61,346 nucleotides of DNA. Source: Candidatus Jorgensenbacteria bacterium. GTDB lineage: Bacteria; Patescibacteriota; Minisyncoccia; UBA6257; GWB1-50-10. Position 1 is the first letter of the stretch. The number at the start of each line of letters is the position of its first letter. A program made the translations under genes and the position numbers. Where the stretch lies: the NCBI GenBank assembly GCA_043807585.1, contig JAZDFV010000003.1, positions 1 through 61,346 on the forward strand. The letters run 5' to 3'. This document shows positions 1 to 23,599 of the stretch, piece after piece. A model generated the notes under the pieces. The model worked only from the letters and a program-made list of their open reading frames with translations. It did not search any database and was not told the DNA's origin.

Positions 1-129
1 ACGCGATCGCGTTTTAATGTGATAAAAATATGAAAGCCCTAAGATTCTGTAGAACCAAAGGGCTTTTTGATACATTACTACTTCACCAGCACCATCCACT
101 TTGTTTCGGTGAAAGCGCCGGCTTTCAGC
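1..129. repeat. 129-bp perfect direct repeat of 9034-9162 (palindrome half, terminator, CTD 3' end)
   Basis: Base-by-base comparison with 9034-9162; first mismatch at 130/9163. Confidence 0.9.
33..66. terminator. Hairpin terminator downstream of CTD tail 1
   Basis: aaagccct...agggcttt stem followed by T-tract; identical copy at 9066-9099. Confidence 0.75.
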
Positions 130-170
130 CGATAGAAATAGATGCCGCTGGGATATTTCTGTGCGTCCCA
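78..170 (-). pseudogene. Orphan 3' fragment of T9SS type A CTD (tail 1)
   Basis: Translates WDAQKYPSGIYFYRLKAGAFTETKWMVLVK*; in-frame TGA a few codons upstream; matches C-terminus of 9111-10406. Confidence 0.9.
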
Positions 171-181
171 GGAAATCTGCA

Positions 182-373
182 TCAATGGACCCTCGGATCA
201 TCGTAGTTCTCACTCGATACAATCGAGGAAGATGCGAGGCTGGGGAGAAACTCTCTGCCTCCACCGCAGGTTGGACATATTTCTGTTCTGCCCAAACTGT
301 TCTTGTATTCCTCTCCGCGGCAGGTGGGGCAATCTCCCGGTCTCAGGAGAAAATCGCGCGCTATTTCAGACAT
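182..373 (-). CDS. 63-aa Cys-rich peptide with two CPTCxG motifs (zinc-finger-like, Z1)
   Basis: ORF with AAGGTG-like RBS and upstream sigma70-like promoter; positional and motif counterpart at 11097-11294. Confidence 0.65.
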   Translation of the reverse strand: MSEIARDFLLRPGDCPTCRGEEYKNSLGRTEICPTCGGGREFLPSLASSSIVSSENYDDPRVH

Positions 374-768: not shown

Positions 769-791
769 TTTTGTCTCCCTTAAAATGACGT

Positions 792-1883: not shown

Positions 1884-1965
1884 GACCGTGCTCTCCTTTT
1901 TTGGGGTTGGTAAAAAACTTGCTTTACTGTAAAACAAGAGCTCTTTCACGTCAATACCGAGGTAA

Positions 1966-3261: not shown

Positions 3262-3328
3262 ACTCTTTATTCTATCAAAAAAACAACCCCTTATGAATCA
3301 GGGGTTGAAAGCAAATCTTCTCTCGTGG

Positions 3329-3493
3329 TTAGTCGACCGCTTTGTCGTGGTCGCCAGTGGAATGGTCGTTGTAGCTTGGTCCGTCGCCGTGGCAAGATAA
3401 CCTTTTCTGGTTAATCTCGGCCCTCACGCGACTGATGATTTTGCTACCGATACCGACCTTCCGCATCGAGTTGCTACTGGAGGTTTGTTCCAT
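3329..3493 (-). CDS. 54-aa putative RiPP precursor, core SCHGDGPSYNDHSTGDHDKAVD
   Basis: Promoter, AAAGGGAG RBS and downstream hairpin (3283-3307); first gene of the operon with HExxH and rSAM. Confidence 0.75.
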   Translation of the reverse strand: MEQTSSSNSMRKVGIGSKIISRVRAEINQKRLSCHGDGPSYNDHSTGDHDKAVD

Positions 3494-3551
3494 GATCGTA
3501 GCTCCCTTTAAGGAAGTGATTGAAAACAGTGAACTAAAACGGACTAAAACT

Positions 3552-3580
3552 AATATACTCTGCGACATTACAAAGGTCAA
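3552..3580 (-). promoter_or_regulatory. Sigma70 promoter TTGACC-17-TATATT for precursor operon
   Basis: Read from reverse complement; lies just past the CTD tail 2 terminator. Confidence 0.7.
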
Positions 3581-3623
3581 CTCCTTAGTTAGGACGCCAA
3601 AAACTCGACAGTTATACAACTCA

Positions 3624-3656
3624 AAAGGGCTGATGAGTTTTTCTCATCAGCCCTTT
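3624..3656. terminator. Terminator after CTD tail 2 (aaagggctgat...atcagcccttt family)
   Basis: Stem family shared with 8946, 10984 and 15205. Confidence 0.8.
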
Positions 3657-3658
3657 GG

Positions 3659-3880
3659 TTACTTGAGCAGAATCATCTTCCTCGTTGCCACGAAGCCGTT
3701 GGCTTCGAAACGGTAGAGATAGACGCCGCTGGGATACTTCTCTGCGTTCCAGACGATCCGGTGGACACCCGCTTCCTTCTCTTCCGCCACGAGTGTTGTG
3801 AGTTCCTGTCCGAGAAGGTTCAGCACGGTGAGTTTCACCGTTGAACGCTTCGGAAGCGCGAACTCAATCGTCGTCGTGGG
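3659..3880 (-). pseudogene. Orphan, nearly complete T9SS CTD fragment (tail 2)
   Basis: Translates PTTTIEFALPKRS...SGVYLYRFEANGFVATRKMILLK*; no start or propeller domain; closest to the C-terminus of 13337-14632. Confidence 0.9.
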
Positions 3881-3959
3881 ATAAATCGCGCCGTCTCACT
3901 CCCTTATATTGGACATATCACCGAAATGGGATTATTTTCAATACAACAAGATTTTAATT

Positions 3960-4490
3960 ATGGAGCTCAAGGAGAGGAATTCGCCTGTTATAAAAGAACG
4001 TTTTTTGCAATTTATCGAGACCTTGCGAGGCAAAATTGTTTTCGCATTTATTTGTGGCAGTGTAGCTAAAAATAGAACCGATGTTGGGAGCGACATAGAC
4101 GTTTTTATATGTGTAAAAGTTCTTGGCGCAGATTTTAAAACGAGATTTAGAAAATGGTATGAGAGAGTTCACCGAGATTTAAAATTTAAACCGGACAACG
4201 TGTTTCCTGGAGAAATCATGACACTGCAAAAACTTGACGCGAATCTGAGGAAGGCACAAAAGAGCACTCCGAACAAAAACATTAAGGATAGAGGTGTACA
4301 TGATGGCGTTGTATGGGCGGGAATGTTGTGTTCAAAAACTTTAGGATTCGTAGGCAATAGAAACGTATTTTTATTGAGAAAAACACTCGCGAAAAAGATT
4401 CTTATCGGGTGGAAGAAAGATTTGATGCAAAAATTTAAAGCGATGAGCTCCGACTCATTTCTCAAGGAAATAGTAAAGTACGAAAAATAA
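3960..4490 (+). CDS. Polymerase-beta-type nucleotidyltransferase domain protein
   Basis: GSVA...SDIDV motif; likely start MELK at 3960. Confidence 0.8.
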   Translation: MELKERNSPVIKERFLQFIETLRGKIVFAFICGSVAKNRTDVGSDIDVFICVKVLGADFKTRFRKWYERVHRDLKFKPDNVFPGEIMTLQKLDANLRKAQKSTPNKNIKDRGVHDGVVWAGMLCSKTLGFVGNRNVFLLRKTLAKKILIGWKKDLMQKFKAMSSDSFLKEIVKYEK

Positions 4491-4497
4491 TAATAGC

Positions 4498-5718
4498 ATG
4501 GTTGGAAACCCAACAATCAAAGAAAAAACGCAAGAGCTCTCTAGTTTATTAGAACTAAAAAGAGAGGATATTATAGAGGTGCTTTTGGAATATGAAAGTT
4601 ATACCACCGCCATTGACGAATTAGAACGCTCACTGAAATGTCTCCACAATATTGATTCAGAGCTCGAATATTTGACATATGGAAAGGTCGATACCATTAG
4701 CGCCTTCTTTCCGTTAAATTTACCTTTGTATTCTACTATATTGTTTGGCGTGGTCCCCGGTTTTATGGCCAACAAAATCTACATAAGGCCACCCTTATTA
4801 ATGCGGGGCGTTCTGCGAAAAATTCACTCACTTCTACATCTAAAAAATGTTTTACCCGACATGAAAATTATTGAGTTGGAGAGGCACCTTTTCCTTGACG
4901 GTTATGCCTCGATTTCCGATGTAATACTTTTCACAGGCAGATACGAAAACGCAAAAGCTGTCGAGGAAAGTTGTATGGCGCCACTCTTCATTTTTAATGG
5001 TGCTGGGATTAATCCTGTTGTGATAACAAAATCTGCCGACATAGAATTAGCCACCCAGAAAACTATGGAGATGAGACTGTTCAATAGCGGCCAAGACTGT
5101 GCTGGACCCGATGCTATCCTAGTTGATCAACGCGTGCTATCAGAATTTATGGGAACCCTACTCAAGAAACTCGCGACTGTGAAAATAGGAAGTTATTTAG
5201 ATAAAAAGGTTCAGGTAGGCAGATTAATAGATAGCAAACACGTTTTATTCATCGGCAAAATTTTAAGCGGATTGAGGGAGAAAATAATATACGGAGGTGC
5301 CGTCAACTACAAAGATTCAATTGTGTACCCGACTGTCATATTGGATACGTTAGAAGATGGAAGTTTAAACTATCAAGAGTTTTTTGCGCCCGTTTTTTAC
5401 GTTCTGCCGTTTACAAACATGGGCAAGCTCGATTCTTATTTTCTTGCCGAAGAATATGTTGATAATGCAATGTACGTTTCCGTATTCGGAGGATCGCCAG
5501 AATATACATCACACATCAAGGGTTCGGTAATATTGAAGGATAAGATAATAAACGATGTAGAAGAAGGCAATAAGCCATATGGAGGCTACGGGGAAAGGGC
5601 GAACTTTGTTGCTTCCAATGGTAAAATGACCCACAGCCCGATTCTAATTTCAAGAACGCTTTGCAATCATCTAAAGTCCTTGCCGCTTAATAAAACCGCA
5701 GTATCAGAACGTTCCTAA
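4498..5718 (+). CDS. Aldehyde dehydrogenase family protein
   Basis: FNSGQDC catalytic Cys, FTG, EFFAPV, PYGGYG motifs. Confidence 0.85.
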   Translation: MVGNPTIKEKTQELSSLLELKREDIIEVLLEYESYTTAIDELERSLKCLHNIDSELEYLTYGKVDTISAFFPLNLPLYSTILFGVVPGFMANKIYIRPPLLMRGVLRKIHSLLHLKNVLPDMKIIELERHLFLDGYASISDVILFTGRYENAKAVEESCMAPLFIFNGAGINPVVITKSADIELATQKTMEMRLFNSGQDCAGPDAILVDQRVLSEFMGTLLKKLATVKIGSYLDKKVQVGRLIDSKHVLFIGKILSGLREKIIYGGAVNYKDSIVYPTVILDTLEDGSLNYQEFFAPVFYVLPFTNMGKLDSYFLAEEYVDNAMYVSVFGGSPEYTSHIKGSVILKDKIINDVEEGNKPYGGYGERANFVASNGKMTHSPILISRTLCNHLKSLPLNKTAVSERS

Positions 5719-5733
5719 ATCGAGACCAAACTT

Positions 5734-6675
5734 ATGCGCCAGCACAAAACAGTCGATAACTCCATTAGCTCGGACGACCTATCTGGGATCAGAAAGCGAT
5801 ACCCGTGGATAAAGATGTTCTCGGGGGACATAGAGTGTTATATACCGCCGGGATATTACGATAAGTTATTAAAAGAATACACCTTCGGTGGCAAGTCAGA
5901 TTTGGATATCTTCCGATTATATTTAAAATCTCTAACACTGAAGCCGGGTTGCCGAGTGTTAGAATTGGGTGGCGGTACGGGGAGAGCGACGAAGGTATTT
6001 CTTGACGCAATAAAGAATTTTGGAGCACTAGACGTAATCGATTTAAGCCCTGGAATGGTGTCCTATTTATCGAGGAGGTTCAGTAGGAATAGAAACGTGT
6101 TGGTTAGGACAGCCGATAATGTAGATTATTTGAACAAAACAAAAAGAAAGTATGATTTGGTGTATAGTCTTTGGAGTTTTTCCCACTCGGCACATCAACA
6201 CATGGCTGACGAGGGGTTAAGAAGGGGGTCAAAATATACTGAAAATTCTCTGGAGGGTTTCATAAAGGGAAACATTAATCCACGCGGAAATTTCTTCGTC
6301 ATGCATTTTGACAGTCTGAGTGAGGAACAGAGAATTCTGATGAAGCAGTGGGCGAAAGATTTTCACATTTTTAAGAAAAGGTCTAGACAGTCACCATCCA
6401 AGCGGTTGTTGGATAAAATCTTGAAAAATCTTAATGGCGTTTATATTCACGGACTCACCACTAAATACTATGCAGGTGACCAAATACTATATAATTCGCT
6501 GGACGAATTATTGGAAATTTTCCTTAATTTCCATATGGAAACGGAATACAACAGAAGCCGTTATCTAAAACGTGCGTTACGCGACATATCGAATGACGCG
6601 CATAAATATTGTCAACCAAACGGCACATACCTCATACGCCCGGGCTGTTTCGTTTATTCGTTCCAGAGATTGTAG
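5734..6675 (+). CDS. Class I SAM-dependent methyltransferase
   Basis: VLELGGGTG, IDLSPGM, YDLVY motifs. Confidence 0.85.
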   Translation: MRQHKTVDNSISSDDLSGIRKRYPWIKMFSGDIECYIPPGYYDKLLKEYTFGGKSDLDIFRLYLKSLTLKPGCRVLELGGGTGRATKVFLDAIKNFGALDVIDLSPGMVSYLSRRFSRNRNVLVRTADNVDYLNKTKRKYDLVYSLWSFSHSAHQHMADEGLRRGSKYTENSLEGFIKGNINPRGNFFVMHFDSLSEEQRILMKQWAKDFHIFKKRSRQSPSKRLLDKILKNLNGVYIHGLTTKYYAGDQILYNSLDELLEIFLNFHMETEYNRSRYLKRALRDISNDAHKYCQPNGTYLIRPGCFVYSFQRL

Positions 6676-6735
6676 AACCTGATGAGATTGTAAAAAGGCA
6701 ACCTTTTGTAGAACATCTTTTTGCATATCAACAAG

Positions 6736-6763
6736 AAAGCCACGGACTCATGCCCGTGGCTTT
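6736..6763. terminator. Bidirectional terminator between methyltransferase and argS
   Basis: aaagccacgg...ccgtggcttt. Confidence 0.75.
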
Positions 6764-6770
6764 TTGAGTG

Positions 6771-8621
6771 TTACATTTTTTCAGGAACTCGAATATTCAT
6801 CAAATTGAGTCCTTTTCGGATGACATTCCTTACTGCGGTGATAAGAAGCACCCTTGAGCGAAGCAAGTTCTCTTCCTCTGTTCTTGAGACCGAAACCTCC
6901 GTGTAAAAATTATTGAAGAGTTGAGCTAACTCTTCAAGATACGAAGCGAGAAAATGTATCGCATCAAACCGCTGGGATTTGATAACTACGAAGGGGAAAA
7001 ACATGAGTTTCTTTGCGAGCTCAAATTCACTCCGCGCCTCGAAGTGGGGCAAGAAATCACGAGCGTTTTTAAGCATCTCCCCATTGATACTTCCAACCCT
7101 TTTTAGTATCGAGTTGATTCTCACGCAAGTGTACTGAAGATACGGAGAGCTGCCACCGTCGAAATTGAGCATCTTCTCCCAATTAAAAGAGATATTCTTG
7201 GTTCGTGATTGCCGAAGGTCGTTGTAAAGTATTGCACCGACCCCAACAATTTCTGATACCCTTCCCGTCTCTTCAGGAGTCATGGAAGAACCTTTCGCGG
7301 ATATAACCGCTCGCGACTTCAAGGTTGCTTGATCAATTAGCTCTTCGAGCTCAACCAATGTACCTTTTCTCGTGGACATTTTCTTTCCCTCGGTGAGAAC
7401 CATTCCAAACCCAACATGTTTGGCTTCCGCACCTGTCAGAAGATTGAGTTCCTCGCCAAGCAAGAACAGTTGTTTGAAATTAAGCTCTTGTTCGCTCCCG
7501 ACAACGTACACAATCACGTTTGGCTTGAATGTCTTGACGCGAAATTTCAATGTTGCTAAGTCTCTGGCTATATACAAAGTCGAACCATCCTGCTTCCTTA
7601 GGAGGAAGGATGGCGCGTCTAGGGAATCTACTATGACAGTTTCTGTTCCCTCTTCTTTTCTGGCGATGCCCTTTTCCAGACATTCTTCTATTGTTTCTTG
7701 TGCCAACTCGGAGAAATATCCTTCTCCTATAGAGGTGTCGAATTGGACTCCGAGTTTTTCGTAGGCCTTCTTAAAATCGGCGACGCTCAGATCTCTGAAT
7801 CTTTTCCACAGCTCAGTGATCCTCGGATCGTGCTTCTCGAGTTTCTTGAATATCTCTCTTGCTTCTATCTCCAACTCCGGGTGCTCCTCCGATTCGCGGT
7901 TAAACCTGACGTACAGATCTTTGAGATCCTTAAGTGAACTTTCTGAGGCGCCTTCTGTTCCTTCTCCCCAGCATTCGTATGCGTAGATAAGCTTACCAAA
8001 CTGAGTCCCCCAATCGCCCAAATGGTTGTCCCTTATCTCCGTATACCCTGTTGCCCGGTACACATTGGCTAGGGCCTGCCCAATGATAGTGGACCGTAAG
8101 TGCCCAACGCCTATCGGTTTAGCTATATTAGGAGCAGAGTAGTCAAAGAGGGCAACCCTTTTTGCGTTAACGTCGCTCTCGCCATATTTCTCTCCTAGAG
8201 AGTCGATGGTCAATAATATCTCAGGGTACAAAGTTTCCGATTCCAGTTCTATGTTGACGAATGGACCCTCGTTTTTTGCCGTCTTGATCCATTTTATGTC
8301 GCTCTGGTTGATCACGGAAGATATGGTTCCCGCGATTTTTACTGGATTCTCTTTTAATGATTTTGCTAATTCGAAAACCGGTAGTGCAATATCTCCACTT
8401 ACATGAGCTGGGGGTATTTCAAGCTCCAATCTTTCTAGCTTCGAGGCGTCAAACCTCTCCCGCAGAACACCCTTAATGGCCCTATCAAGCAGTTCTAGTT
8501 GGTAGCTGTGCAAGGATATATAGGATCTTTCCCTTTTCTCGCTTTCAACCCTTGCCAAAGCTTTCTCGATTGAATCGTCGATCTCGGTCCTATAATCCTC
8601 AAATGGGTCACCTTGCTTCAT
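6771..8621 (-). CDS. argS: Arginyl-tRNA synthetase
   Basis: PNIAK...GHLRSTIIG, HLGDWGTQFG, KMSTRKG, YLQY; start MKQG with GAAAGGAG RBS. Confidence 0.95.
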   Translation of the reverse strand: MKQGDPFEDYRTEIDDSIEKALARVESEKRERSYISLHSYQLELLDRAIKGVLRERFDASKLERLELEIPPAHVSGDIALPVFELAKSLKENPVKIAGTISSVINQSDIKWIKTAKNEGPFVNIELESETLYPEILLTIDSLGEKYGESDVNAKRVALFDYSAPNIAKPIGVGHLRSTIIGQALANVYRATGYTEIRDNHLGDWGTQFGKLIYAYECWGEGTEGASESSLKDLKDLYVRFNRESEEHPELEIEAREIFKKLEKHDPRITELWKRFRDLSVADFKKAYEKLGVQFDTSIGEGYFSELAQETIEECLEKGIARKEEGTETVIVDSLDAPSFLLRKQDGSTLYIARDLATLKFRVKTFKPNVIVYVVGSEQELNFKQLFLLGEELNLLTGAEAKHVGFGMVLTEGKKMSTRKGTLVELEELIDQATLKSRAVISAKGSSMTPEETGRVSEIVGVGAILYNDLRQSRTKNISFNWEKMLNFDGGSSPYLQYTCVRINSILKRVGSINGEMLKNARDFLPHFEARSEFELAKKLMFFPFVVIKSQRFDAIHFLASYLEELAQLFNNFYTEVSVSRTEEENLLRSRVLLITAVRNVIRKGLNLMNIRVPEKM

Positions 8622-8808
8622 TTTATTTCTCCTTTCTTGTACTCTTTTCACGAAGGTTTGTTTTGTTTGTAATAAACTACGGTTAGCGTATCCGGTTTCT
8701 AAGTACTTATCAAGTTAAAGCTTTGAGTCGCCGCAATTGGTTGGTTTGCGCGTCTACGATGATATTCTAATAGAATTTACCGTAGCTGGAAAGAATAACA
8801 AAGACATC

Positions 8809-8863
8809 AAAGCCCGATACGATGATTCGTATCGGGCTTTGTTGTTACTTACTTCACGAGCAC
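8809..8863 (-). pseudogene. CTD micro-tail 3 (VLVK*, 8849-8863) plus terminator 8809-8840
   Basis: Terminator aaagcccgatac...gtatcgggcttt nearly identical to 17691-17722 behind the third full gene. Confidence 0.7.
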
Positions 8864-8877
8864 CCTTCCATCCGCAT

Positions 8878-8913
8878 TACTATCCTATCGGACGATCGTC
8901 CGATAGGATAGTA
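8878..8913. repeat. Perfect 36-bp loopless palindrome centred on CGATCG
   Basis: tactatcctatcggacga|tcgtccgataggatagta. Confidence 0.9.
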
Positions 8914-8945
8914 TGGTTGCTCGGTCACTGTTCTCACGCAACGCA

Positions 8946-8994
8946 AAAGGGCTGATACATATGTATCAGCCCTTTAATAAAGCTACTTCACGAG
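8946..8994 (-). pseudogene. CTD micro-tail 4 (LVK*, 8983-8994) plus terminator 8946-8975
   Basis: ctacttcacgag tail; acgcaaaagggctgat terminator as found after the 138-aa genes. Confidence 0.6.
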
Positions 8995-9018
8995 GGGCAT
9001 TTCCTCCACGGCCTAAAG

Positions 9019-9060
9019 TTTTATCACACTAAAACGCGATCGCGTTTTAATGTGATAAAA
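9019..9060. repeat. 42-bp loopless palindrome (1 mismatch) centred on GCGATCGC
   Basis: ttttatcacactaaaacgcga|tcgcgttttaatgtgataaaa; partial second copy at 1-27. Confidence 0.9.
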
Positions 9061-9110
9061 ATATGAAAGCCCTAAGATTCTGTAGAACCAAAGGGCTTTT
9101 TGATACATTA

Positions 9111-10406
9111 CTACTTCACCAGCACCATCCACTTTGTTTCGGTGAAAGCGCCGGCTTTCAGCTGATAGAAGTAGACGCCACTCGGGAAACTTCCTGCGTC
9201 CCAAACGATTCTGTGGGTTCCGGGCTCCATCTCTCCATCAACGAGCGTTTCAATCTTCTGACCGATTGTATTCCAGATTGTAACACTCACATCGGAACGT
9301 TTCGGCAGAGAGAACTCGATAGTCGTGCTCGGATTGAACGGGTTCGGGTAGTTTTGGGAGAGAACGAACGCGGTTGGAACTGAAGAAGGATAGTCGTCCA
9401 CGGCGGTTGGCGTATCAATCGCGCCGTCCACGCGGTAGATGGCGTTCCATGTGCCGACGAGAAGGGATTTTCCCTTCACCGCGAGCGACATCACGAGCGT
9501 GGAGTCCGCGACGATTTGCGTCCATTCCTTCCCATCGCATTTGAAGACGCCGCCTTTTCCACTGGGATCACCGCCGCCTAGCCATCCGAAACCGACGAAC
9601 ATGAGGTTGGGTTTCAGAACAAAGATCGCGGTGCCATTCCGCGCCGATGCGTCGAAACCGGGAACTTTTTCCCAAGTATCCCCGTCATCGGTTGAGCGAT
9701 AGAGGCCCTTTCTCTCGACGCCCGCATAGACAATGCCATTACTATCCGCCGCGACTGCCCACACATGAAGATCGCCAAGACCCTCATTTGACTGGTGCCA
9801 TGTCTTGCCGTCATTAGTTGAGCGGAGCACGCCGAGGCCAATAGTGTCTGCCACACCAGCGAAAATGGAACCGGTTTTCGGATTCATCGCGAGTTCTTCG
9901 ACGTTGAAGTAGTTGCGAGAATCGTAGAAGATTTCCCGCCATGTTATGCCGCCGTCGTCGGATTGTGTAATGCGCCACCCCATACCACCGAGAATCGAAC
10001 CGTCGGGTTTTGCGAGGAAGCAACCTCCCCCGCCAGCGCTCCACACAAAATCCCAATTTCCGCCTTCATCGGTTGACCGGAAGATACCGCTACCGGAACC
10101 ATAGAGGATGGCGTTCGTTTTCTTGTCTCGTATGACGTCGAAGCCGAAGTTGGAGAGGAAATCCTTCTTGAAGATTTGTTTCCACGTCTTTCCATCATCT
10201 GTTGACCGGAGCAGGGCCTTGCGGGACATTGCGGCGAGAATATCGCCGTTCGCGTCCACAAAAAGCGAGAGAACGTTTCCTTTCAAACTGTCCGGCAGAA
10301 GATTCTTGCTTACCGTAATATCCGTCGCCACCGCTTGTGTCCATACCTTTTGAGGCATGGACGCGGTGAGCACCACAAGGATACTCCACATCCATATCCG
10401 TTTCAT
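9111..10406 (-). CDS. Secreted BNR/Asp-box beta-propeller protein with T9SS type A CTD (B1)
   Basis: Signal peptide, repeated RSTDDGKTW Asp-boxes, LSQNYPNPFNPSTTIEF...MVLVK. Confidence 0.9.
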   Translation of the reverse strand: MKRIWMWSILVVLTASMPQKVWTQAVATDITVSKNLLPDSLKGNVLSLFVDANGDILAAMSRKALLRSTDDGKTWKQIFKKDFLSNFGFDVIRDKKTNAILYGSGSGIFRSTDEGGNWDFVWSAGGGGCFLAKPDGSILGGMGWRITQSDDGGITWREIFYDSRNYFNVEELAMNPKTGSIFAGVADTIGLGVLRSTNDGKTWHQSNEGLGDLHVWAVAADSNGIVYAGVERKGLYRSTDDGDTWEKVPGFDASARNGTAIFVLKPNLMFVGFGWLGGGDPSGKGGVFKCDGKEWTQIVADSTLVMSLAVKGKSLLVGTWNAIYRVDGAIDTPTAVDDYPSSVPTAFVLSQNYPNPFNPSTTIEFSLPKRSDVSVTIWNTIGQKIETLVDGEMEPGTHRIVWDAGSFPSGVYFYQLKAGAFTETKWMVLVK

Positions 10407-10454
10407 GGCAAACCTCCATAACTGATTATTGATGATTTGGTAATTATTTCTATG

Positions 10455-10560
10455 TACATTATACCATAGAACATATCAAAAAGTCAATATTACGACAGTA
10501 GACAACTTTAGCGTCAAGCTGAACCGAGAAAAACCCCATCTGATGTGATATAATTTCGAT
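10455..10560. promoter_or_regulatory. Divergent promoter region, duplicated at 14676-14782
   Basis: TTGACT-18-TATAAT with extended TG on minus strand; extended -10 TGATATAAT on plus strand; 86 bp identical between copies. Confidence 0.75.
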
Positions 10561-10561
10561 A

Positions 10562-10978
10562 ATGAAGAAAGTAAGGGCTTTATTCGTCTCTCTTGCGATT
10601 TTTTCGCTTATTCTCCCTGTGGGCGGTTTCGCGGCGTTTCAAGGCCCAGCAAACTTTCAGGGGAAATATGAGGCAAGCCAGGACGCCATTCAGTTGCGGT
10701 GGCAAAATGTTGAGAACTACAGTCAACAGACGTTGACAAAGACCGTCAGTCCTTCAGGTAAACCCGGTGTTTTAGTTCCAAGATTCGATACTGCTCCCGG
10801 CAACAAATCTTTCTCCGATACAAACCAGGGGCAGGAGTTCACCCGCGGCGCGTATCAGTACCAACTTTCCACAACTAAGGGTGGCGAGATACAAACGTCC
10901 GATCTCTCCGTTCCCATCACCCCGGAGGACTCGAACATCGTGATCGTGAAGACGACGAGCGGGGGCTTGATGGCATAA
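10562..10978 (+). CDS. 138-aa secreted single-domain protein (A1), equal to the N-terminus of 19174-22152
   Basis: Signal peptide then AAFQGPANFQGKYEASQDAIQL...; ends GGLMA*. Confidence 0.8.
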   Translation: MKKVRALFVSLAIFSLILPVGGFAAFQGPANFQGKYEASQDAIQLRWQNVENYSQQTLTKTVSPSGKPGVLVPRFDTAPGNKSFSDTNQGQEFTRGAYQYQLSTTKGGEIQTSDLSVPITPEDSNIVIVKTTSGGLMA

Positions 10979-10983
10979 AACGC

Positions 10984-11089
10984 AAAAGAGCTGATACATT
11001 CTTGTTGTATCAGCTCTTTTGATAAATTTTCACTCCGGCTGAAGTGCCGGAATCTACTTCACCAGAAGCATTTTCACCGACGAAATGAA
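10984..11089. pseudogene. Terminator 10984-11020 plus orphan CTD tail 6 (FISSVKMLLVK*, 11054-11089, minus strand)
   Basis: Translation of reverse complement; same layout at 15205-15300. Confidence 0.75.
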
Positions 11090-11096
11090 TTCGCAA

Positions 11097-11294
11097 TCAA
11101 GACGGTGCCGATTCAGAAATTGCGCCCGTCGCCTCGTTCTTAAAGAGATCGCGGACGGGATCGGGCATTCTGCCAACACCATCACATCCACCACATCGGC
11201 CCCCTTTTTCTCTCTCTTCTCCTGTTCCGTTACAGGCCGGGCAGACAATCCATCCTTCCGGCATAAATGTGCAACATCCAAATTCTCCTAGCAT
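11097..11294 (-). CDS. 65-aa Cys-rich peptide with DnaJ-type CxxCxGxG motifs (Z2)
   Basis: CPACNGTG...CGGCDGVG; AGGAGG RBS. Confidence 0.75.
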   Translation of the reverse strand: MLGEFGCCTFMPEGWIVCPACNGTGEEREKGGRCGGCDGVGRMPDPVRDLFKNEATGAISESAPS

Positions 11295-11537
11295 GGGAAC
11301 CTCCTCGTGAAATTGGAAAGGTTGTTTCTATTTACTCTGCTTACATTACACCACACTAGACATAAGAAAATCAAATTTTTATAAGATGGGGTTTTGTGGC
11401 CCGGCAAACCCAACTATTGGTTTGCAATTCCTGACAAGATCAAGCGTGTCCGCAATATCACTAACCGTGGCCGCATCAACGGCGTCACCAGCGCCAGTCG
11501 CTGGAGAAGGAGCAAATCCAAAGCTCCAGCTAACTAC

Positions 11538-11565
11538 TTGACGAGTTGTTACTATTATGTATAAT
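11538..11565 (+). promoter_or_regulatory. Sigma70 promoter TTGACG-16-TATAAT for the peptide/M16 operon
   Basis: Near-consensus boxes read directly. Confidence 0.75.
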
Positions 11566-11611
11566 GCGAGTAGTATATTTCATAAAACTTTTTGAACGAA
11601 AGGAGGAATGT

Positions 11612-11752
11612 GTGCTGAAAGCAAAACCCGATCAAGAACAAATGCCCGAAACGCCGAATAGGGACCCATCAACGGATGCGATTGATTACCCGCAATCACC
11701 GGAAGGTGGAAGGGAAGAGGAATCTTCCGCGATGGAGAGTGAGTTGTTCTAA
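11612..11752 (+). CDS. 46-aa acidic peptide (IDY peptide 2) MLKAKPDQEQMPETPNRDPSTDAIDYPQSPEGGREEESSAMESELF
   Basis: AAGGAGG RBS with GTG start at 5-nt spacing; shares PE..D.IDY...E(N/L)F with 561-686. Confidence 0.7.
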   Translation: MLKAKPDQEQMPETPNRDPSTDAIDYPQSPEGGREEESSAMESELF

Positions 11753-11830
11753 CCATTCTCAGCGCAATTAAAAGTGTTTTCCGTTCTTGGAGTAACCAAC
11801 TAAATTTCAAAAGGAAAGGAGGTGAAAGCT

Positions 11831-11914
11831 ATGTATCCGAACCAACGTTATAGATCGGACGATCCGCCCGAAGGAACCGTGATGGATGACGACGGCGAAC
11901 CTATCCATGGTTAA
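11831..11914 (+). CDS. 27-aa peptide MYPNQRYRSDDPPEGTVMDDDGEPIHG
   Basis: Ideal AAGGAGGTG RBS; followed by hairpin ~11932-11968. Confidence 0.75.
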   Translation: MYPNQRYRSDDPPEGTVMDDDGEPIHG

Positions 11915-12007
11915 CACTCCCCTCATCATTCCGAACACGATTTATTGTTATTACAGTAAGTCGTGTTTTATTTTGTTATTTCTTAAAATAAGCTATTATT
12001 TTGATTG

Positions 12008-13282
12008 ATGAAGCATTATTCCGGGTCAAAACTTGAGAACGGTCTCACCGTCATTACAAGCGAGGATAAAAACTCTGAAGTCGTTCTTCTCATGGCTGGG
12101 TTTAAGGCTGGGTCACGTTATGAGAAAAAAAATGAGCGCGGCTATGCACATCTTTTAGAACACGTACTCCTCAAGGGTACCAAAAAACGTCCGTCCATTA
12201 CTAAAGTTGGCGAGATAACGGATCAAGCCGGAGCTGATCTGGGAGCCTATACCGACATGGAAAGTGTAGTGGTGCGTCTCCATGCCGCAAAGGAATGGCG
12301 GGAGGGCATGTTTGAACTATTGCTAGATGTTATTGGAAATCCTCTTTTCTCAACGGAAACGCTCAAAAACGAAAAGAATATTGTTATCCAAGAATTACAC
12401 AAATTCCGTGACAATCGAGGACCGCGCCTGTGGTCAGAATCACTAAAACGTCTGTTTGGATCTCACCCGCTCGCACAAAATCCCATCGGGGAAGAGGAGG
12501 TGATTTGTCATGTAACAAGCGCGAAACTCAAAAGCTACTATGAACGATTCTTAACTCCCGATAGGGGCGTAATAATAGCTACCGGGAACGTGAGTCACGC
12601 GGAGATTGTAAAATGGGTATCACAATACGGAAAACCAAAATGGATGCAATCTCGGGGAGCATCCACTCCACTCATATCAGTACACCCGAAATCTGGCACA
12701 GAGTTTATCAAAGAGCCCGGGAACCAAACACAGTTGTTCTTCAATTTTGTTTGTCCCGCGCTTACGCTCAATAAATTGCTGACGTTAGAACTAATTGCAA
12801 ACGCATTTGGATATGGGAATGTCCCAATACTAAAACAGGATTTACGCCACAAAAGAGGGTTGGTGTATGCAATCAGCTCTTACGTGCAAAGATTTCAGGA
12901 TGTAGTTCTATTCTATGTTTCCACCGCGAGTACTGAACCGAAGGAGGTCGTTGAAGCGGTAGTAAAAATATTTGAAAACTTTTTGGACACGTTTCCAGAA
13001 AGCCGATTTGAAGAATTCAAGAAAAAATACAAGAGCGTTTTTCTTCGCAAGCTGAGTGATCCTTTTTACGAAGCCAATCTATTGAAAGATTCTTGGATGT
13101 TTTACGGAAGGTTAGTAACGCCAGAAGAAATTTCCCAAAACATCGAATCGCTGACGTACCATGATGTGGTTAATATGAGAAATCGATATCTTATTAATGA
13201 GAAGCTTTTTATTACGATGTTCGGAGAACGGAATCCTGAAATTAAATTATCGGGACAAAGACAATTTACTTCTCATTCCTAA
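12008..13282 (+). CDS. M16 family zinc peptidase
   Basis: HLLEH inverted zincin motif; R..RGLVY C-domain motif. Confidence 0.9.
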   Translation: MKHYSGSKLENGLTVITSEDKNSEVVLLMAGFKAGSRYEKKNERGYAHLLEHVLLKGTKKRPSITKVGEITDQAGADLGAYTDMESVVVRLHAAKEWREGMFELLLDVIGNPLFSTETLKNEKNIVIQELHKFRDNRGPRLWSESLKRLFGSHPLAQNPIGEEEVICHVTSAKLKSYYERFLTPDRGVIIATGNVSHAEIVKWVSQYGKPKWMQSRGASTPLISVHPKSGTEFIKEPGNQTQLFFNFVCPALTLNKLLTLELIANAFGYGNVPILKQDLRHKRGLVYAISSYVQRFQDVVLFYVSTASTEPKEVVEAVVKIFENFLDTFPESRFEEFKKKYKSVFLRKLSDPFYEANLLKDSWMFYGRLVTPEEISQNIESLTYHDVVNMRNRYLINEKLFITMFGERNPEIKLSGQRQFTSHS

Positions 13283-13289
13283 AAAAATA

Positions 13290-13321
13290 AAAGCCCGAGG
13301 GATTGCTCCGCTCGGGCCTTT
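13290..13321. terminator. Bidirectional terminator between M16 and B2
   Basis: aaagcccgag...ctcgggcctt. Confidence 0.75.
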
Positions 13322-13336
13322 TGATACAAAGTACTA

Positions 13337-14632
13337 CTACTTCAGCAACAGCATCTTTCTCGTTGCCACGAAGCCGTTCGCTTCGAGGCGATGGAAATAG
13401 ACACCGCTGGGTAAATCTCGAGCGTTCCAGACGATTCTGTGAATTCCGGGCTCCATCTCTCCATCAACGAGCGTTTCAACATTCTGTCCGAGGGCGTTGT
13501 AAATCGCGAGATTCACATTCGCCCGCTTCGGAATAGAGAACTCTATCGTCGTACTCGGATTGAAGGGGTTCGGGTAGTTCTGGAGCAGACGGTAATCAGT
13601 AATTAGTAACTGGTAATTGTTGTCCACGGCGGTTGGCGTATTCATCGCGCCGTCCACGCGGTAGATGGCATTCCATGTGCCGACGAGAAGGGATTTTCCC
13701 TTCACCGCGAGCGCACCTACCCAACTCACCGAATCGGCGACGATCTGTGTCCATGCTTTCCCATCATACTTGAGGACACCGCTCTTCGCGCCGCCAACAC
13801 CTCCCGCATCGTCGAATCCCACGAACACAAAGTCGGGTTTCACTGCGAGAATCTTCCGCGCCCACCTGTGGGACGCGCCGATTTCCACAATTCTTGTCCA
13901 CGACACACCGTCGTCCACGGAACGATAGAGGCCGTTCTCAGTGCCGGCGTAAAGGGTGCCGTTTGAATCCGCCGCCACAGACCACACATGGAGATCTCCG
14001 AGACCCCCATTTGATTGGTGCCACGTTTTCCCGTCATCGGCGGACCGGAGCACGCCAAGCCCGATGGTGTCGGCGGTACCCGCGAAGAGAGAGCCAGTTT
14101 TTGGGTTCACCGCGAGCTCCTCGACGTTGAAGTAGTGGTCGCTACGATAGAATACCGGTTTCCAAGACACACCACCATCTTCGGAATGGCCGATATATTT
14201 ACCTGTGCCGGCGAGAATGGAACCATCCTCCTTTACCAGAAAACATCCTGCTCCTTTTTCCCACACAAAAGTCCAACTCACGCCGTTATCACCTGACCGG
14301 TAAAGCCCTCCGCCGTTTCCAAAAAGAAGCGCGTTAGTTTTCTGGTCGCGCATGACCGCAAAACCGAAGTTAGAGAGAAAATCTTTTTTGAAGATTCGCT
14401 CCCATGTCTTCCCGTCGTCCGTAGAGCGGAGCAACGCCTTGAAGGACATTGCGGCAAAAATATCGCCATTTGTGTCTATCCAGATTGAAAGAACATTGTC
14501 TTTCAAACTGTCCGGCAGAAGATTCTTGCTTACAGTGATATCCGTCGCCACCGATTGCGCCCATACCTTTTGAGGCATGGACAGCACACTCAACATCAGG
14601 GCGAGCGTGAAAGCCCATGCTCTCGTTTTCAT
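13337..14632 (-). CDS. Secreted BNR beta-propeller with T9SS type A CTD (B2)
   Basis: Paralog of B1; QNYPNPFNP; heptamer-repeat-derived linker NYQLLITDY. Confidence 0.9.
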   Translation of the reverse strand: MKTRAWAFTLALMLSVLSMPQKVWAQSVATDITVSKNLLPDSLKDNVLSIWIDTNGDIFAAMSFKALLRSTDDGKTWERIFKKDFLSNFGFAVMRDQKTNALLFGNGGGLYRSGDNGVSWTFVWEKGAGCFLVKEDGSILAGTGKYIGHSEDGGVSWKPVFYRSDHYFNVEELAVNPKTGSLFAGTADTIGLGVLRSADDGKTWHQSNGGLGDLHVWSVAADSNGTLYAGTENGLYRSVDDGVSWTRIVEIGASHRWARKILAVKPDFVFVGFDDAGGVGGAKSGVLKYDGKAWTQIVADSVSWVGALAVKGKSLLVGTWNAIYRVDGAMNTPTAVDNNYQLLITDYRLLQNYPNPFNPSTTIEFSIPKRANVNLAIYNALGQNVETLVDGEMEPGIHRIVWNARDLPSGVYFHRLEANGFVATRKMLLLK

Positions 14633-14782
14633 TGCTGTTACTCCTTATATAGGTTTGTGAATGACTTTAACTGCTTACATTATACCATAGAACATATCAA
14701 AAAGTCAATATTACGACAGTAGACAACTTTAGCGTCAAGCTGAACCGAGAAAAACCCCATCCGATGTGATATAATTTCAATA

Positions 14783-15199
14783 ATGAAAAGAGCAAGAGCT
14801 TTATTCGTTTCGCTTGCGATTCTCTCGCTTATTCTCCCCGCGGGCGGTTCCGCGGCGTTCCAGGGACCGGCAAACTTTCAGGGGAAATACGAGGCAAGCC
14901 AGGACGCCATTCAATTGAATTGGCAGAATGTTGAGAACTACAGTCAACAGACGTTGACAAAGACCGTCAGTCCTTCAGGTAAACCTGGTGTTTTGGAGCC
15001 AGGACTTGATACCACTCCCGGCAACAAATCCTTCTCCGACACAAACCAAGGGCAGGAGTTCACCCGCGGCTCGTATCAGTACCAACTTTCCACGATCAAG
15101 AGCGGCGAGACACAGACATCCGATCTTTCTGTCCCCATCATGCCGGAGGACTCGAACATCGTGATTGTGAAGACGACGACCGGGGGTTTGATGGCATAA
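14783..15199 (+). CDS. 138-aa secreted single-domain protein (A2)
   Basis: Close paralog of A1 with the same GGLMA* end. Confidence 0.8.
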   Translation: MKRARALFVSLAILSLILPAGGSAAFQGPANFQGKYEASQDAIQLNWQNVENYSQQTLTKTVSPSGKPGVLEPGLDTTPGNKSFSDTNQGQEFTRGSYQYQLSTIKSGETQTSDLSVPIMPEDSNIVIVKTTTGGLMA

Positions 15200-15204
15200 A
15201 ACGC

Positions 15205-15300
15205 AAAAGGGCTGATGCATATCGCATCAGCCCTTTTGATAAATCTTCACTCCGACTAAAGTGCCGGAGGCTACTTCACAAGCGTCATTTTCTTGCGAAT
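15205..15300. pseudogene. Terminator 15205-15237 plus orphan CTD tail 8 (IRKKMTLVK*, 15271-15300, minus strand)
   Basis: Translation of reverse complement; parallels 10984-11089. Confidence 0.75.
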
Positions 15301-15332
15301 ATTTCTATCGAGGTTCAACCTTGATAGGAACT

Positions 15333-16331: not shown

Positions 16332-16397
16332 AACTTATATTATAAATAAAAAAAGAGTGCGAGAGAAGTCTTAAAATCCCGCACTCTCTATTAAGCC

Positions 16398-22152: not shown

Positions 22153-22414
22153 GGGGAACTTACAACTTACAACCTACAACTGACAACCAGTTTTGGTTTC
22201 GGAAGTTCTACCCACGCACCAGTCCCGCTTAGCGGGGCGGTACGGGGTTTTGCTATAGTCAACTTGTATGTTATACTGACGATCGTCAGTATAACATACA
22301 ATTCCACGGAACCCCAAATGTACCCCACGCATAACCCCTTGTTTATGTGTGGGGTGGAAAGAAGCCGCGGACGCAAGAGAAAGGCCGACTCAGATTTTTG
22401 AGTCGGCCTTTGGT

Positions 22415-23268: not shown

Positions 23269-23563
23269 CCCCGCACCAGACCAAGTGCCATCATCCCTGC
23301 GGGAGATCTCTCGAAGGGAGACAACGCCTAGACGCCCCTCCAGAAAACACGGTTTTATTTCAAAGCATCGCGGCGGTTGAAGAAACGCCGCGCTTTAAGA
23401 GAGCATTGTGGGGAGCCTTGCCTGCTCGCCTCGCTAAAGCTCTGGCGAAGCGGGTCGGTAGGCAGGGAAACTTCGACATAGCACCCATTTTACCCACTTA
23501 CAAAGCCATGGCTTTTTATCTGGGGAAACACCTCTTATGAGTGGTTAGGTGATTGGGGAGGAG

Positions 23564-23599
23564 AAGGATCCGCTCCGACTTAAGTCGGAGCGGATCCTT
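23564..23599. terminator. Perfect 36-bp palindrome at the comF stop
   Basis: aaggatccgctccgactt|aagtcggagcggatcctt. Confidence 0.65.

What the first reader, a model, noticed from the sequence alone, without database searches (positions are those of the whole stretch)
8878..9060. Long loopless CGATCG-centred palindromes sit just upstream of duplicated gene tails at two unrelated loci
Seen: 8878-8913 (36 bp, perfect) lies ~14 nt upstream of tail 3, and 9019-9060 (42 bp, 1 mismatch) ~24 nt upstream of tail 4, with a partial copy at 1-27. A third, 52562-52599 (38 bp, perfect), abuts a duplicated tRNA-Pro 3' end. The arms are unrelated but all share the CGATCG centre, two of them GCGATCGC (the cyanobacterial HIP1 octamer). 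The other two long loopless palindromes in the backbone (23564, 47325) have different centres and look like terminators. Inference: these are recombination or resolution signals, or scars such as cruciform sites, fused hairpin ends or head-to-head joined element ends, linked to whatever duplicates gene 3' ends.
Basis: partly seen in the sequence, partly recalled or inferred. Interest (0 to 1): 0.78.

Follow-up and report, generated by a model that had tools for sequence, protein, structure and literature searches.

The report
Small mobile hairpin palindromes in CPR bacterium
The long CGATCG-centred palindromes are real, but they look like small, independently inserted hairpin repeats that collect behind genes in this candidate-phyla-radiation bacterium, and they are probably not the cause of the nearby duplicated gene tails.

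Summary
Perfect or near-perfect loopless palindromes lie at 8878-8913, 9019-9060 (partial copy at 1-27) and 52562-52599. Three of the seven palindrome families in the window share the CGATCG centre (P about 1e-4).

The contig is from a CPR bacterium (Jorgensenbacteria-like).

The proposed link to tail duplication fails where it can be tested. Two independent assemblies of the closest relative carry the same tRNA-Pro downstream insert and the same duplicated 16-nt tail, but lack the 47-nt palindrome unit. Relatives of the palindromes occur in other genomes at unrelated sites with no duplicated tail. Tail duplicates occur in 9 related loci without CGATCG palindromes.

In 1.1 Mb of related genomes, long loopless palindromes form the largest class of long inverted repeats. 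They avoid divergent promoter regions, stay symmetric through paired changes, and in four cases bracket small winged-helix genes.

Best reading: these are REP/REPIN-like dispersed hairpin elements, solo copies of protein-recognised sites, with the enzyme unknown. The duplicated tails are fossils of displaced gene 3' ends at replacement hotspots. No recombinase, protelomerase or methylase is encoded in the window.

The parts
1..27 (.). P0: truncated second copy (centre plus right arm) of the 9019-9060 palindrome, at the contig start. It is part of a 170-bp duplicated module of palindrome, terminator and sorting-domain tail.
   Evidence: positions 1-170 match 9034-9203 at about 95%
78..185 (-). 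Truncated sorting-domain remnant (35 aa, ...YFYRLKAGAFTETKWMVLVK*) attached to P0 and its terminator
8804..8845 (.). Terminator hairpin C, downstream of tail 3
8850..8877 (-). Tail 3: decayed copy of the last 9 codons of a sorting-domain gene (ADGRVLVK*)
   Evidence: family D16
8878..8913 (.). P1: 36-bp perfect loopless palindrome, core GACGATCGTC
8946..8975 (.). Terminator hairpin B (AAAGGGCTGATACATATGTATCAGCCCTTT). The same terminator family follows the intact BNR genes in L087 and L089.
8984..9010 (-). Tail 4: decayed copy of the last 9 codons (AVEEMPLVK*)
9019..9060 (.). P2: 42-bp palindrome with 1 mismatch, core ACGCGATCGCGT. A relative sits in L003 6736-6775.
9111..10406 (-). Intact BNR/Sortilin-type gene with a Por_Secre_tail C-terminal domain. 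Its own tail and terminator A (9067-9100) precede P2.
22255..22301 (.). P3 unit: ATAGTCAAC plus a 38-bp perfect palindrome (22264-22301). This is the second copy of the P4 unit, lying between convergent genes inside an outer 9-bp stem.
   Evidence: (D15)
23489..23528 (.). Q1: degenerate copy of the CCATGG-centred palindrome family
   Evidence: I1
23564..23599 (.). 36-bp perfect, GC-rich palindrome (centre CTTAAG) abutting the stop of the ComFC-like gene; terminator-like
47325..47366 (.). Q2: 42-bp perfect palindrome (centre CCATGG) between convergent pheT and recG. It is absent from L006. Its core CCAGTTACTAnGCCATGGCnTAGTAACTGG recurs twice in L055, flanking a PaaX-like gene.
52176..52247 (+). 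tRNA-Pro(CGG)
52248..52392 (+). Insert 1 (145 nt, GC-rich hairpins; contains GGAATCGAAC, complementary to the tRNA T-loop)
52393..52408 (+). First duplicate of the tRNA-Pro 3' end (TTCCCAGCGGCCCGAC)
52409..52552 (+). Insert 2, shared with L004/L090 at 92.5% identity. It contains the 32-bp CGGCCG palindrome at 52437-52468.
52553..52599 (.). P4 unit: ATAATCAAT plus a 38-bp perfect palindrome (52562-52599). It is absent from the otherwise identical site in L004 and L090.
52600..52615 (+). Second duplicate of the tRNA-Pro 3' end, followed by the conserved upstream region of the ABC transporter gene

Best explanation
P1-P4, together with the CCATGG and CGGCCG palindromes, are copies of short (about 36-50 bp), non-coding, hairpin- or cruciform-forming palindromic elements. 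They are analogous to REP/REPIN sequences and are dispersed through the gene-3' flanks of this Jorgensenbacteria-like CPR genome and its relatives.

Shown:
- They form sequence families with copies at unrelated loci, both within the genome and between genomes.
- One copy (the P4 unit, 47 nt) is a clean presence/absence difference against the closest relative.
- Their dyad symmetry is kept through paired changes in both arms.
- They avoid divergent promoter regions and sit after gene ends, often beyond a canonical terminator.

Inferred:
- They are recognised as symmetric DNA sites or extruded hairpins by a protein supplied in trans. In relatives, the same kind of palindrome brackets small winged-helix genes (PaaX-like with a Cas2-like domain, and ArsR-like). 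The window copies would then be orphan ('solo') sites, copied or recombined by an enzyme not encoded in this contig.
- The shared CGATCG centre marks one superfamily or one recognition specificity.

The duplicated tails are a separate phenomenon. They are fossils of displaced gene 3' ends at loci where the upstream part of the gene (tRNA-Pro, or the paralogous sorting-domain genes) has been repeatedly replaced or had DNA integrated. Palindromes and tails lie together because both accumulate in the same non-essential space behind genes.
For: 1. Presence/absence of one unit. The window reads ...GACGTCCG|ATAATCAAT+38-bp palindrome|TTCCCAGCGGCCCGAC. L004 and the independent assembly L090 read ...GACGTTCGC|TTCCCAGCGGCCCGAC, inside an insert that is 92.5% identical over 133 nt.

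2. A second copy of the same unit. The 47-nt unit recurs at 22255-22301 in an unrelated intergenic region.

3. Families shared between genomes:
- A P2 relative, TATCACATTAAATCGCG-AC-CGCGATTTAATGTGATA, lies between an mscS-like gene and rplU in L003.
- The P3 core ACTGACGATCGTCAGT lies in a 44-bp perfect palindrome in L017.
- The Q2 core occurs twice in L055, a Liptonbacteria genome.

4. Symmetry is preserved. There are two paired changes between P3 and P4, one between P2 and L003, and one between Q2 and L055. A mirrored 1-nt indel separates P3 from L017. No one-sided disruptions are seen apart from the single P2 mismatch (sequences).

5. Clade census over 1.13 Mb. Among inverted repeats with arms of at least 13 nt, the zero-gap class is the largest (39 of 173 in relatives, 8 of 20 in the window). 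In bacteria generally, 4-bp spacers dominate (PMC13155455).

6. Location. Palindromes split 21 co-directional, 12-14 convergent and 2 divergent. Intergenic base pairs split 88.6, 33.1 and 35.9 kb. P = 0.005 for the divergent depletion.

7. Bracketing of small DNA-binding genes in relatives: two PaaX-like genes in L055, one in L008, and an ArsR-type gene in L077. One L055 site is a hybrid of two neighbouring sites, which suggests exchange at the core.

8. Tails without palindromes. Nine related loci, plus L091, have tRNA-Pro 3'-end duplicates with heterogeneous short inserts. In L004, L090 and L091 the live tRNA-Pro has a different acceptor stem from the remnant tails.
Against: - No transposase, RAYT-type enzyme, recombinase or winged-helix gene is present in the 61-kb window. 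Copy numbers seen are low (2 per family), and genome-wide copy number cannot be measured.
- No target-site duplication or conserved head motif was found.
- Three of the four CGATCG palindromes directly abut a truncated tail on its 5' side, and tails 3 and 4 start at the same codon. This regularity is not explained by simple co-location.
- The L017 copy is followed by a T-run, so it could simply be a terminator.
- The presence/absence difference could be a deletion in the L004 lineage rather than an insertion in the window lineage.
- Symmetric changes are also expected for homodimer binding sites, so they do not prove hairpin formation.
Confidence: 0.5

Rival explanations
1. Recombination or integration sites tied to tail duplication. 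Each unit of 'terminator + palindrome' would be a miniature integrative element, or the arm of an integrated element. The palindrome would be the recombinase-binding arm next to the core. The core would be the duplicated tail: 16 nt of tRNA-Pro, or about 25 nt of the sorting-domain 3' end.
For: - P1, P2 and P4 lie 0-9 nt to the 5' side of a truncated tail.
- Tails 3 and 4 begin at the same position of the coding sequence, and all tRNA-Pro duplicates begin in the T-loop. This is typical of site-specific att cores (the knowledge of tRNA-targeting tyrosine integrases is my own).
- Tail-to-tail spacing is regular, at 128-134 nt.
- The hybrid palindrome in L055 suggests exchange within palindrome cores.
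- The right flank of P3, TTCCACGGAACCCCA, weakly resembles a tRNA 3' end.
Against: - L004 and L090 have the same arm and the same core but no palindrome.
- Nine other loci have the tail duplication without CGATCG palindromes, and none has an integrase or a large insert within 10 kb.
- Relatives of the palindromes in L003 and L017 have no tail next to them.
- Four of six truncated sorting-domain tails in the window lack a palindrome.
- There is no recombinase in the window.
Confidence: 0.2
2. Ordinary transcript-end hairpins that evolved in place. These would be intrinsic terminators or RNA-stabilising or RNase III stems, made perfect by template-switch correction of quasi-palindromes. They would not be mobile.
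For: - The palindromes are biased toward gene-3' and convergent regions.
- Predicted RNA hairpins are very stable, -26 to -35 kcal/mol with z-scores of -4 to -9.
- The L017 copy is followed by TTTGTTTTT.
- 23564-23599 is GC-rich and abuts a stop codon.
- L057 and L047 have palindromes right after tRNA-Pro ends.
Against: - P1-P4 are AT-rich with 17-19-bp stems and lack a U-tract. Only P4, on the minus strand, meets the terminator scan.
- P1, P2 and the L003 copy lie beyond canonical terminators.
- RNA hairpins do not need self-complementary loops, yet zero-gap repeats outnumber 4-nt-loop repeats.
- The same 47-nt unit at two unrelated loci, and family members at unrelated loci in other genomes, cannot arise in place.
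Confidence: 0.2
3. Replicated hairpin-telomere or protelomerase target sites, or head-to-head joined element ends.
For: Size (36-44 bp), perfect dyad symmetry with no loop, and a self-complementary 6-bp centre are what a telomere-resolvase substrate looks like (own knowledge of TelN, TelK and ResT sites).
Against: - The flanks on the two sides are unrelated, and the region is collinear with relatives.
- Several different palindromes lie inside one contiguous chromosome segment.
- No protelomerase-like gene was found by Pfam in the window.
- No terminal-inverted-repeat element lies between or around them.
Confidence: 0.04
4. Assembly or library fold-back artefact.
For: The contig starts inside a palindrome (position 1).
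Against: - Unique flanks on both sides.
- Family members, and an orthologous CGGCCG palindrome, occur in independent assemblies from other samples: L003, L004, L090, L017 and L055.
Confidence: 0.02

Closest known systems
REP / REPIN sequences mobilised by RAYT (Y1 HUH) transposases (PMC3116915, PMC3337134)
   Same: - Short extragenic palindromes that form long hairpins.
- Dispersed in families.
- Located after genes.
- Symmetry maintained.
- In relatives, a single small gene is bracketed by its cognate palindromes, as RAYT genes are flanked by REPs.
   Different: - Low observed copy number.
- No loop or spacer, giving perfect dyad symmetry through the centre.
- No GTAG-type head motif.
- No RAYT was found. 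The bracketed genes in relatives are winged-helix proteins (PaaX-like with a Cas2-like domain, or ArsR-like), not HUH enzymes.
- The organism is a CPR bacterium, for which I found no description of such repeats.
HIP1 (GCGATCGC) of cyanobacteria
   Same: Two of the palindromes have GCGATCGC at the centre.
   Different: HIP1 is an 8-mer over-represented hundreds to thousands of times per cyanobacterial genome. Here GCGATCGC occurs 3 times in 61 kb, only inside the palindromes. CGATCG is at or below expectation. The organism is not a cyanobacterium.
Operators of dimeric repressors (PaaX, PaaR/TetR, ArsR types)
   Same: - Perfect dyad symmetry including the centre.
- The L077 palindrome contains GTGATTCGCG, which resembles the E. 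coli PaaX box as I recall it.
- The only database match to the P3/P4 pattern is a 26-bp operator-like palindrome between a TetR-family gene and paaK.
- Palindromes sit 32-55 nt upstream of small winged-helix genes in L055 and L077.
   Different: - The window copies lie in convergent or post-terminator positions, not in promoters.
- At 36-44 bp they are longer than usual operators.
- The outer arms differ between copies yet remain self-complementary, which protein binding alone does not require.
att sites of tRNA-targeting integrative elements (applies to the tails, not the palindromes)
   Same: Direct repeats of the tRNA 3' end, starting in the T-loop, bound serial inserts downstream of tRNA-Pro. 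The locus is hypervariable among relatives.
   Different: - The inserts are only 25-190 bp and carry no integrase.
- No large element is seen in any of about 60 related loci.
- In some relatives the whole live tRNA allele differs from the fossil tails. This fits gene replacement that leaves the old 3' end behind at least as well.
Protelomerase (telomere resolvase) target sites
   Same: Length, perfect palindromy and a self-complementary 6-bp centre.
   Different: The palindromes are internal to a collinear chromosome segment and have unrelated flanks. Several different sequences are present, and no enzyme gene was found.

Membership tests
HIP1 (cyanobacterial highly iterated palindrome) | GCGATCGC strongly over-represented across the genome | tested here: not met
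   3 occurrences in 61,346 bp, all at palindrome centres. CGATCG occurs 12 times against 17-33 expected.
HIP1 (cyanobacterial highly iterated palindrome) | Cyanobacterial host | tested here: not met
   The CCA-adding enzyme, ArgRS and gene order match Jorgensenbacteria, Brennerbacteria and other Patescibacteria.
REP/REPIN-RAYT | Extragenic palindromic repeats occurring as sequence families at many loci | tested here: inconclusive
   The families exist: P0/P2 plus L003, P3/P4 plus the L017 core, and Q1/Q2 plus two copies in L055. All are extragenic. Only 2 copies per family are visible in 61 kb, and the genome-wide count is not available.
REP/REPIN-RAYT | Cognate RAYT (IS200/IS605-like Y1 transposase) gene flanked by the repeats | tested here: not met
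   No Y1_Tnp or other transposase was found in the window by Pfam. In relatives the bracketed genes are PaaX-like or ArsR winged-helix proteins. The rest of the genome was not available.
REP/REPIN-RAYT | Conserved 5' tetranucleotide head (GTAG/GTGG) at the cleavage site | tested here: not met
   Arms start TACT, TTTT and TTGT. No shared head is visible.
Intrinsic (Rho-independent) terminators | GC-rich stem, 3-8 nt loop, and a U-tract directly after the stem | tested here: not met
   The scan flags the neighbouring hairpin 8808-8841 but not P1 or P2. P4 passes only on the minus strand. P3 has no T-run. 23564-23599 and the L017 copy are terminator-like.
Protelomerase target / hairpin telomere junction | Protelomerase gene and a linear replicon; the junction flanked by mirror-image sequence | tested here: not met
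   No such gene was found in the window. The flanks differ on the two sides and are syntenic with relatives.
Tyrosine-integrase att repeats at tRNA 3' ends (for the tails) | Direct repeats of the tRNA 3' segment flanking the inserted DNA | tested here: met
   TTCCCAGCGGCCCGAC occurs three times in the window. The same pattern is seen in 9 related loci.
Tyrosine-integrase att repeats at tRNA 3' ends (for the tails) | Integrase gene inside the inserted element | tested here: not met
   Inserts are 25-190 bp. No distal repeat lies within 10 kb in any locus.
Operator of a dimeric winged-helix repressor | Cognate regulator gene adjacent, with the site in its promoter | tested here: not met
   Met in the relatives L055, L008 and L077. 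Not met for any palindrome in the window.
Operator of a dimeric winged-helix repressor | Protein binds the palindrome | not testable with these tools
   Needs EMSA or footprinting.

The most novel reading that the evidence does not exclude
CPR (Paceibacteria) genomes may host an undescribed class of selfish or regulatory cassette. It would be a small winged-helix protein with a Cas2-like domain (PaaX-like), or an ArsR-type protein, bracketed by its own zero-loop palindromes. Orphan copies would spread to gene-3' flanks, in an analogue of REP-RAYT that uses a different protein fold. The palindrome cores (CGATCG, CCATGG and others) would act as exchange points, helping the cassette-like replacement of gene 3' ends seen at tRNA-Pro and at the sorting-domain genes.
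Probability: 0.15. Interest if true: 0.7.

Novelty: new variant of a known kind. Interest (0 to 1): 0.42.

Why it matters
CPR bacteria have tiny genomes that are usually described as poor in repeats. Even so, long zero-loop palindromes are the commonest class of long inverted repeat in this clade. They form families shared between genomes and sometimes bracket small DNA-binding genes.

If they are mobile, or are recognised by a dedicated protein, they would be a REP-like system in an uncultivated lineage. They would also be useful markers for strain-level comparison.

The window also shows that tRNA-Pro(CGG) and the paralogous sorting-domain genes are hotspots where gene 3' ends are repeatedly displaced and left as fossils. 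This bears on how reduced genomes that depend on competence take up and replace genes.

For the original claim, the practical result is negative. The palindromes should not be read as the signal that duplicates gene tails.

Tried and rejected
- Exact-sequence look-ups of four window proteins found no contigs. I replaced it with a 1.13-Mb census of 80+ related loci.
- A pattern scan for the P3/P4 family gave 0 hits in genome contigs and 0 in viral contigs. In metagenome contigs it gave 2 hits that are one unrelated TetR-paaK operator.
- Viral scans for the P1, P2 and Q2 cores gave 0 hits.
- Rfam found only tRNAs. Nothing matched the palindromes or the tRNA-Pro inserts.
- I considered a tRNA-like reading of the 73-nt P3 region, which has a 9-bp outer stem and is exactly tRNA length. 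There is no D-arm or T-arm, and neither ARAGORN nor Rfam calls it, so I dropped it.
- I looked for target-site duplications, terminal inverted repeats beyond the palindrome, and a shared flanking motif among P1-P4. Nothing was convincing.
- No solo half-arms were found that would suggest local inverted duplication.
- The low-GC first 19 kb might have been a chimeric join. I rejected this because the Brennerbacteria contig L087 is syntenic with both parts.
- ArgRS and BNR relatives (L005, L087-L089) gave no orthologous empty site for P1 or P2.
- An alignment of the tRNA-Pro inserts shows only a loose subfamily (L047, L060, L076). I did not build a covariance model.
- Literature searches found nothing on palindromic repeats in CPR, or on PaaX-like Cas2-domain proteins with flanking palindromes.

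Full report
**What the window is.** The 61,346-bp window is a whole contig; the window's own proteins are listed with a longest contig of 61,346 bp.
- The backbone (19-61 kb, about 58% GC) carries a type IV pilus operon, ComFC, LigA, GatCA, PheST, RecG, the CCA-adding enzyme and seven tRNAs.
- The CCA enzyme is 63-75% identical to proteins of Candidatus Jorgensenbacteria, Brennerbacteria and other Patescibacteria.
- The first 19 kb are about 44% GC. They hold three paralogous BNR/Sortilin-type genes with a Por_Secre_tail C-terminal domain, arranged in 4.2-kb segmental repeats. They also hold radical-SAM/SPASM genes and a Patescibacteria-type ArgRS.
- A Brennerbacteria contig (L087) is syntenic with both the backbone and this island, so the contig is not a chimera.

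**Checking the observation.**
- P1 is at 8878-8913 (36 bp, perfect).
- P2 is at 9019-9060 (42 bp, one mismatch).
- P0 at 1-27 is a truncated copy of P2. It belongs to a 170-bp duplicated module.
- P4 is at 52562-52599 (38 bp, perfect). It abuts TTCCCAGCGGCCCGAC, a copy of the last 16 nt of tRNA-Pro(CGG).
P3 has the same outer arms as P4 and the same 9-nt leader, ATARTCAAY.

The pattern is not chance.
- CGATCG occurs 12 times, against 17-33 expected, and five of those sites are palindrome centres.
- Three of seven independent palindrome families share this centre (P about 1e-4).
- GCGATCGC occurs only three times. This is not HIP1, and the host is not a cyanobacterium.

**The key comparison at tRNA-Pro.** Gene order CCA enzyme, tRNA-Pro, ABC transporter, tRNA-Ala is conserved in the closest relatives. 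The locus takes different forms:
- L003 has the tRNA followed directly by the conserved ABC upstream region.
- L091 has the tRNA, 25 nt, one fossil tail, then the same downstream sequence.
- L004, and the independent assembly L090, have three remnants. Their last insert is 92.5% identical over 133 nt to window 52419-52552, including the CGGCCG palindrome. It ends ...GACGTTCGC|TTCCCAGCGGCCCGAC.
- The window reads ...GACGTCCG|ATAATCAAT+P4|TTCCCAGCGGCCCGAC.

So the 47-nt P4 unit is a discrete presence/absence difference inside a tail duplication that exists without it. The same unit recurs at P3. The palindrome is therefore not part of whatever duplicated the tail at this locus.

**The tails.** The tRNA-Pro 3' end is duplicated 47-350 bp downstream in 9 of about 60 related loci. 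The inserts are short and heterogeneous. No integrase or large element lies within 10 kb.
- In L004, L090 and L091 the live tRNA-Pro has a different acceptor stem from the fossil tails. The tails are therefore leftovers of displaced 3' ends at a replacement or integration hotspot.
- tRNA-Ala shows the same thing on a small scale.
- In the island, tails 3 and 4 are decayed copies of the last nine codons of the sorting-domain genes, each with a terminator. Terminator B is the family that follows intact BNR genes in L087 and L089.
- Four other truncated sorting-domain remnants of various lengths (78-185, 3659-3838, 11054-, 15271-) have no palindrome beside them.

**The palindromes as a class.** In 1.13 Mb of related loci I found 32 loopless palindromes of at least 28 bp.
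- Among inverted repeats with arms of at least 13 nt, the zero-gap class is the largest: 39 of 173 in relatives and 8 of 20 in the window. A survey of 118,019 genomes found that 4-bp spacers dominate in bacteria (PMC13155455).
- The palindromes lie after gene ends. Counts are 21 co-directional, 12-14 convergent and 2 divergent, against 88.6, 33.1 and 35.9 kb of intergenic DNA. P = 0.005 for the divergent depletion.
- Families cross genomes. A P2 relative sits between an mscS-like gene and rplU in L003, with one paired arm change and a non-palindromic centre. The P3 core ACTGACGATCGTCAGT lies in a 44-bp perfect palindrome in L017, with a mirrored 1-nt indel. The core of the 47325 palindrome occurs twice in L055, with one paired change.
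- P3 and P4 differ by two paired changes.
- No solo half-arms exist.
- L006 has no palindrome between pheT and recG, where the window has 47325-47366.

**A lead on what recognises them.**
- In L055, each of two PaaX-like genes (winged helix plus a Cas2-like middle domain) is bracketed by its own CCATGG-centred palindromes. One family has the same core as window 47325.
- One L055 site is a hybrid of the left arm of one neighbour and the right arm of another. This suggests exchange at the core.
- The only other PaaX-like gene in the data set (L008) is flanked by 39-nt inverted quasi-palindromes.
- An ArsR-type gene in L077 is flanked by two copies of a CGCGCG-centred palindrome.
- A small GIY-YIG gene in L021 sits next to a doubled palindrome.
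- No such gene, and no transposase, recombinase, protelomerase or DNA methylase, is encoded in the window.

**Interpretation.** The best-supported reading (about 0.5) is that these are REP/REPIN-like dispersed palindromic elements. They would be orphan copies of symmetric sites recognised by a trans-acting protein, accumulating in the dispensable space behind genes.

Rivals:
- Recombination arms tied to tail duplication (0.2). This is kept alive by the 0-9-nt abutment in three of four cases and by the shared start point of tails 3 and 4.
- Transcript-end hairpins evolved in place (0.2). This is favoured by location and by the L017 T-run. It is disfavoured by AT-rich stems without U-tracts, by positions beyond canonical terminators, by self-complementary centres, and by dispersal.
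- Telomere-resolvase sites (0.04).
- Artefact (0.02).

**What remains unexplained.**
- Why three different arm families share CGATCG in this genome, when only 2 of 272 CGATCG sites in relatives are palindrome centres.
- Why the palindromes so often sit exactly at the 5' edge of a fossil tail.
- What enzyme, if any, copies them.

Noticed in passing
window 52176-52615; L004 2512-2963; L090; L091 2785-2896; L007, L015, L024, L036, L047, L049, L060, L076: tRNA-Pro(CGG) is a hypervariable hotspot in this clade. Its last 16 nt (sometimes 35-40 nt) are repeated 25-350 bp downstream, with short heterogeneous inserts and no integrase. In some relatives the live tRNA allele differs from the fossil tails. 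A subfamily of inserts (L047, L060, L076) shares the ordered motifs GGAATTGAAC (complementary to the T-loop), GGGTCGGA, AACCGAGGGTT and GGAGTCCCGC...GCGGGACGACGTGAAA. This could be a structured element.
   Followed up: partly
L055 1186-2028 and 6454-7845; L008 20563-21207; L077 1207-1668: Small winged-helix genes are bracketed on both sides by their own 32-44-bp zero-loop palindromes. The genes are PaaX-like with a Cas2-like domain (about 175-190 aa), or ArsR-type (88 aa). One L055 site is a hybrid of two neighbouring sites. I found no description of this arrangement in the literature searches.
   Followed up: partly
window 54755-54927 and 54990-57990: The 3' end of tRNA-Ala (GGTCCACAAAT) is repeated 91 nt downstream. 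A low-GC (about 45%) stretch follows, with ORFs of 293, 212 and 306 aa that have no Pfam hits. This may be another integration remnant or island.
   Followed up: no
window 1-19100; L087: A low-GC island holds three paralogous BNR genes ending in a T9SS-type sorting domain (Por_Secre_tail). It also holds sorting-domain-only mini-ORFs, CxxCxGxG-rich small peptides and radical-SAM/SPASM enzymes, in a CPR bacterium that should lack an outer membrane and a T9SS. The same gene set occurs in a Brennerbacteria contig. The island's ArgRS is only 55-71% identical to any database protein.
   Followed up: partly
window 30324-30770 and 60201-60222: A small PD-(D/E)XK nuclease gene (PDDEXK_3, 131 aa) inside the pilus operon is bracketed by 22-23-nt inverted repeats (AACGCGATGCGAATATACGAAT). 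A third copy of the repeat lies at 60201-60222.
   Followed up: no
window 32145-32164, 36206-36225, 36298-36317, 45188-45207 (weaker at 27337): A separate family of 20-bp GAGCTC-centred palindromes (TTCGGCTGAGCTCAGCCGAA) is embedded in longer 36-114-nt intergenic repeats after pilus and pheS genes. One copy occurs in L028.
   Followed up: partly
window 22244-22316: P3 with its leader sits in the loop of an outer 9-bp stem (GGGGTTTTG / CGGAACCCC). The whole structure is 73 nt, and its 3' end (TTCCACGGAACCCCA) has the layout of a tRNA 3' end. No tRNA is called there.
   Followed up: partly
window 43463-43608 and 61207-61346: An exact 66-nt repeat at 80-nt spacing lies just after tRNA-Met. A 54-bp tandem repeat (2.6 copies) lies at the contig end. 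Intergenic regions also carry simple oligomer runs such as AACTTACAACCTACAACTGACAAC (22164, 40325, 44502).
   Followed up: no
L001 2346-2371, L002 1472-1497: The only public match to GTTATACTNNCGATCGNNAGTATAAC is a 26-bp operator-like palindrome between a TetR-family regulator and a phenylacetate-CoA ligase gene in an unrelated GC-rich organism. Sequences of the P3/P4 type therefore have the layout of a dimeric-repressor operator.
   Followed up: partly
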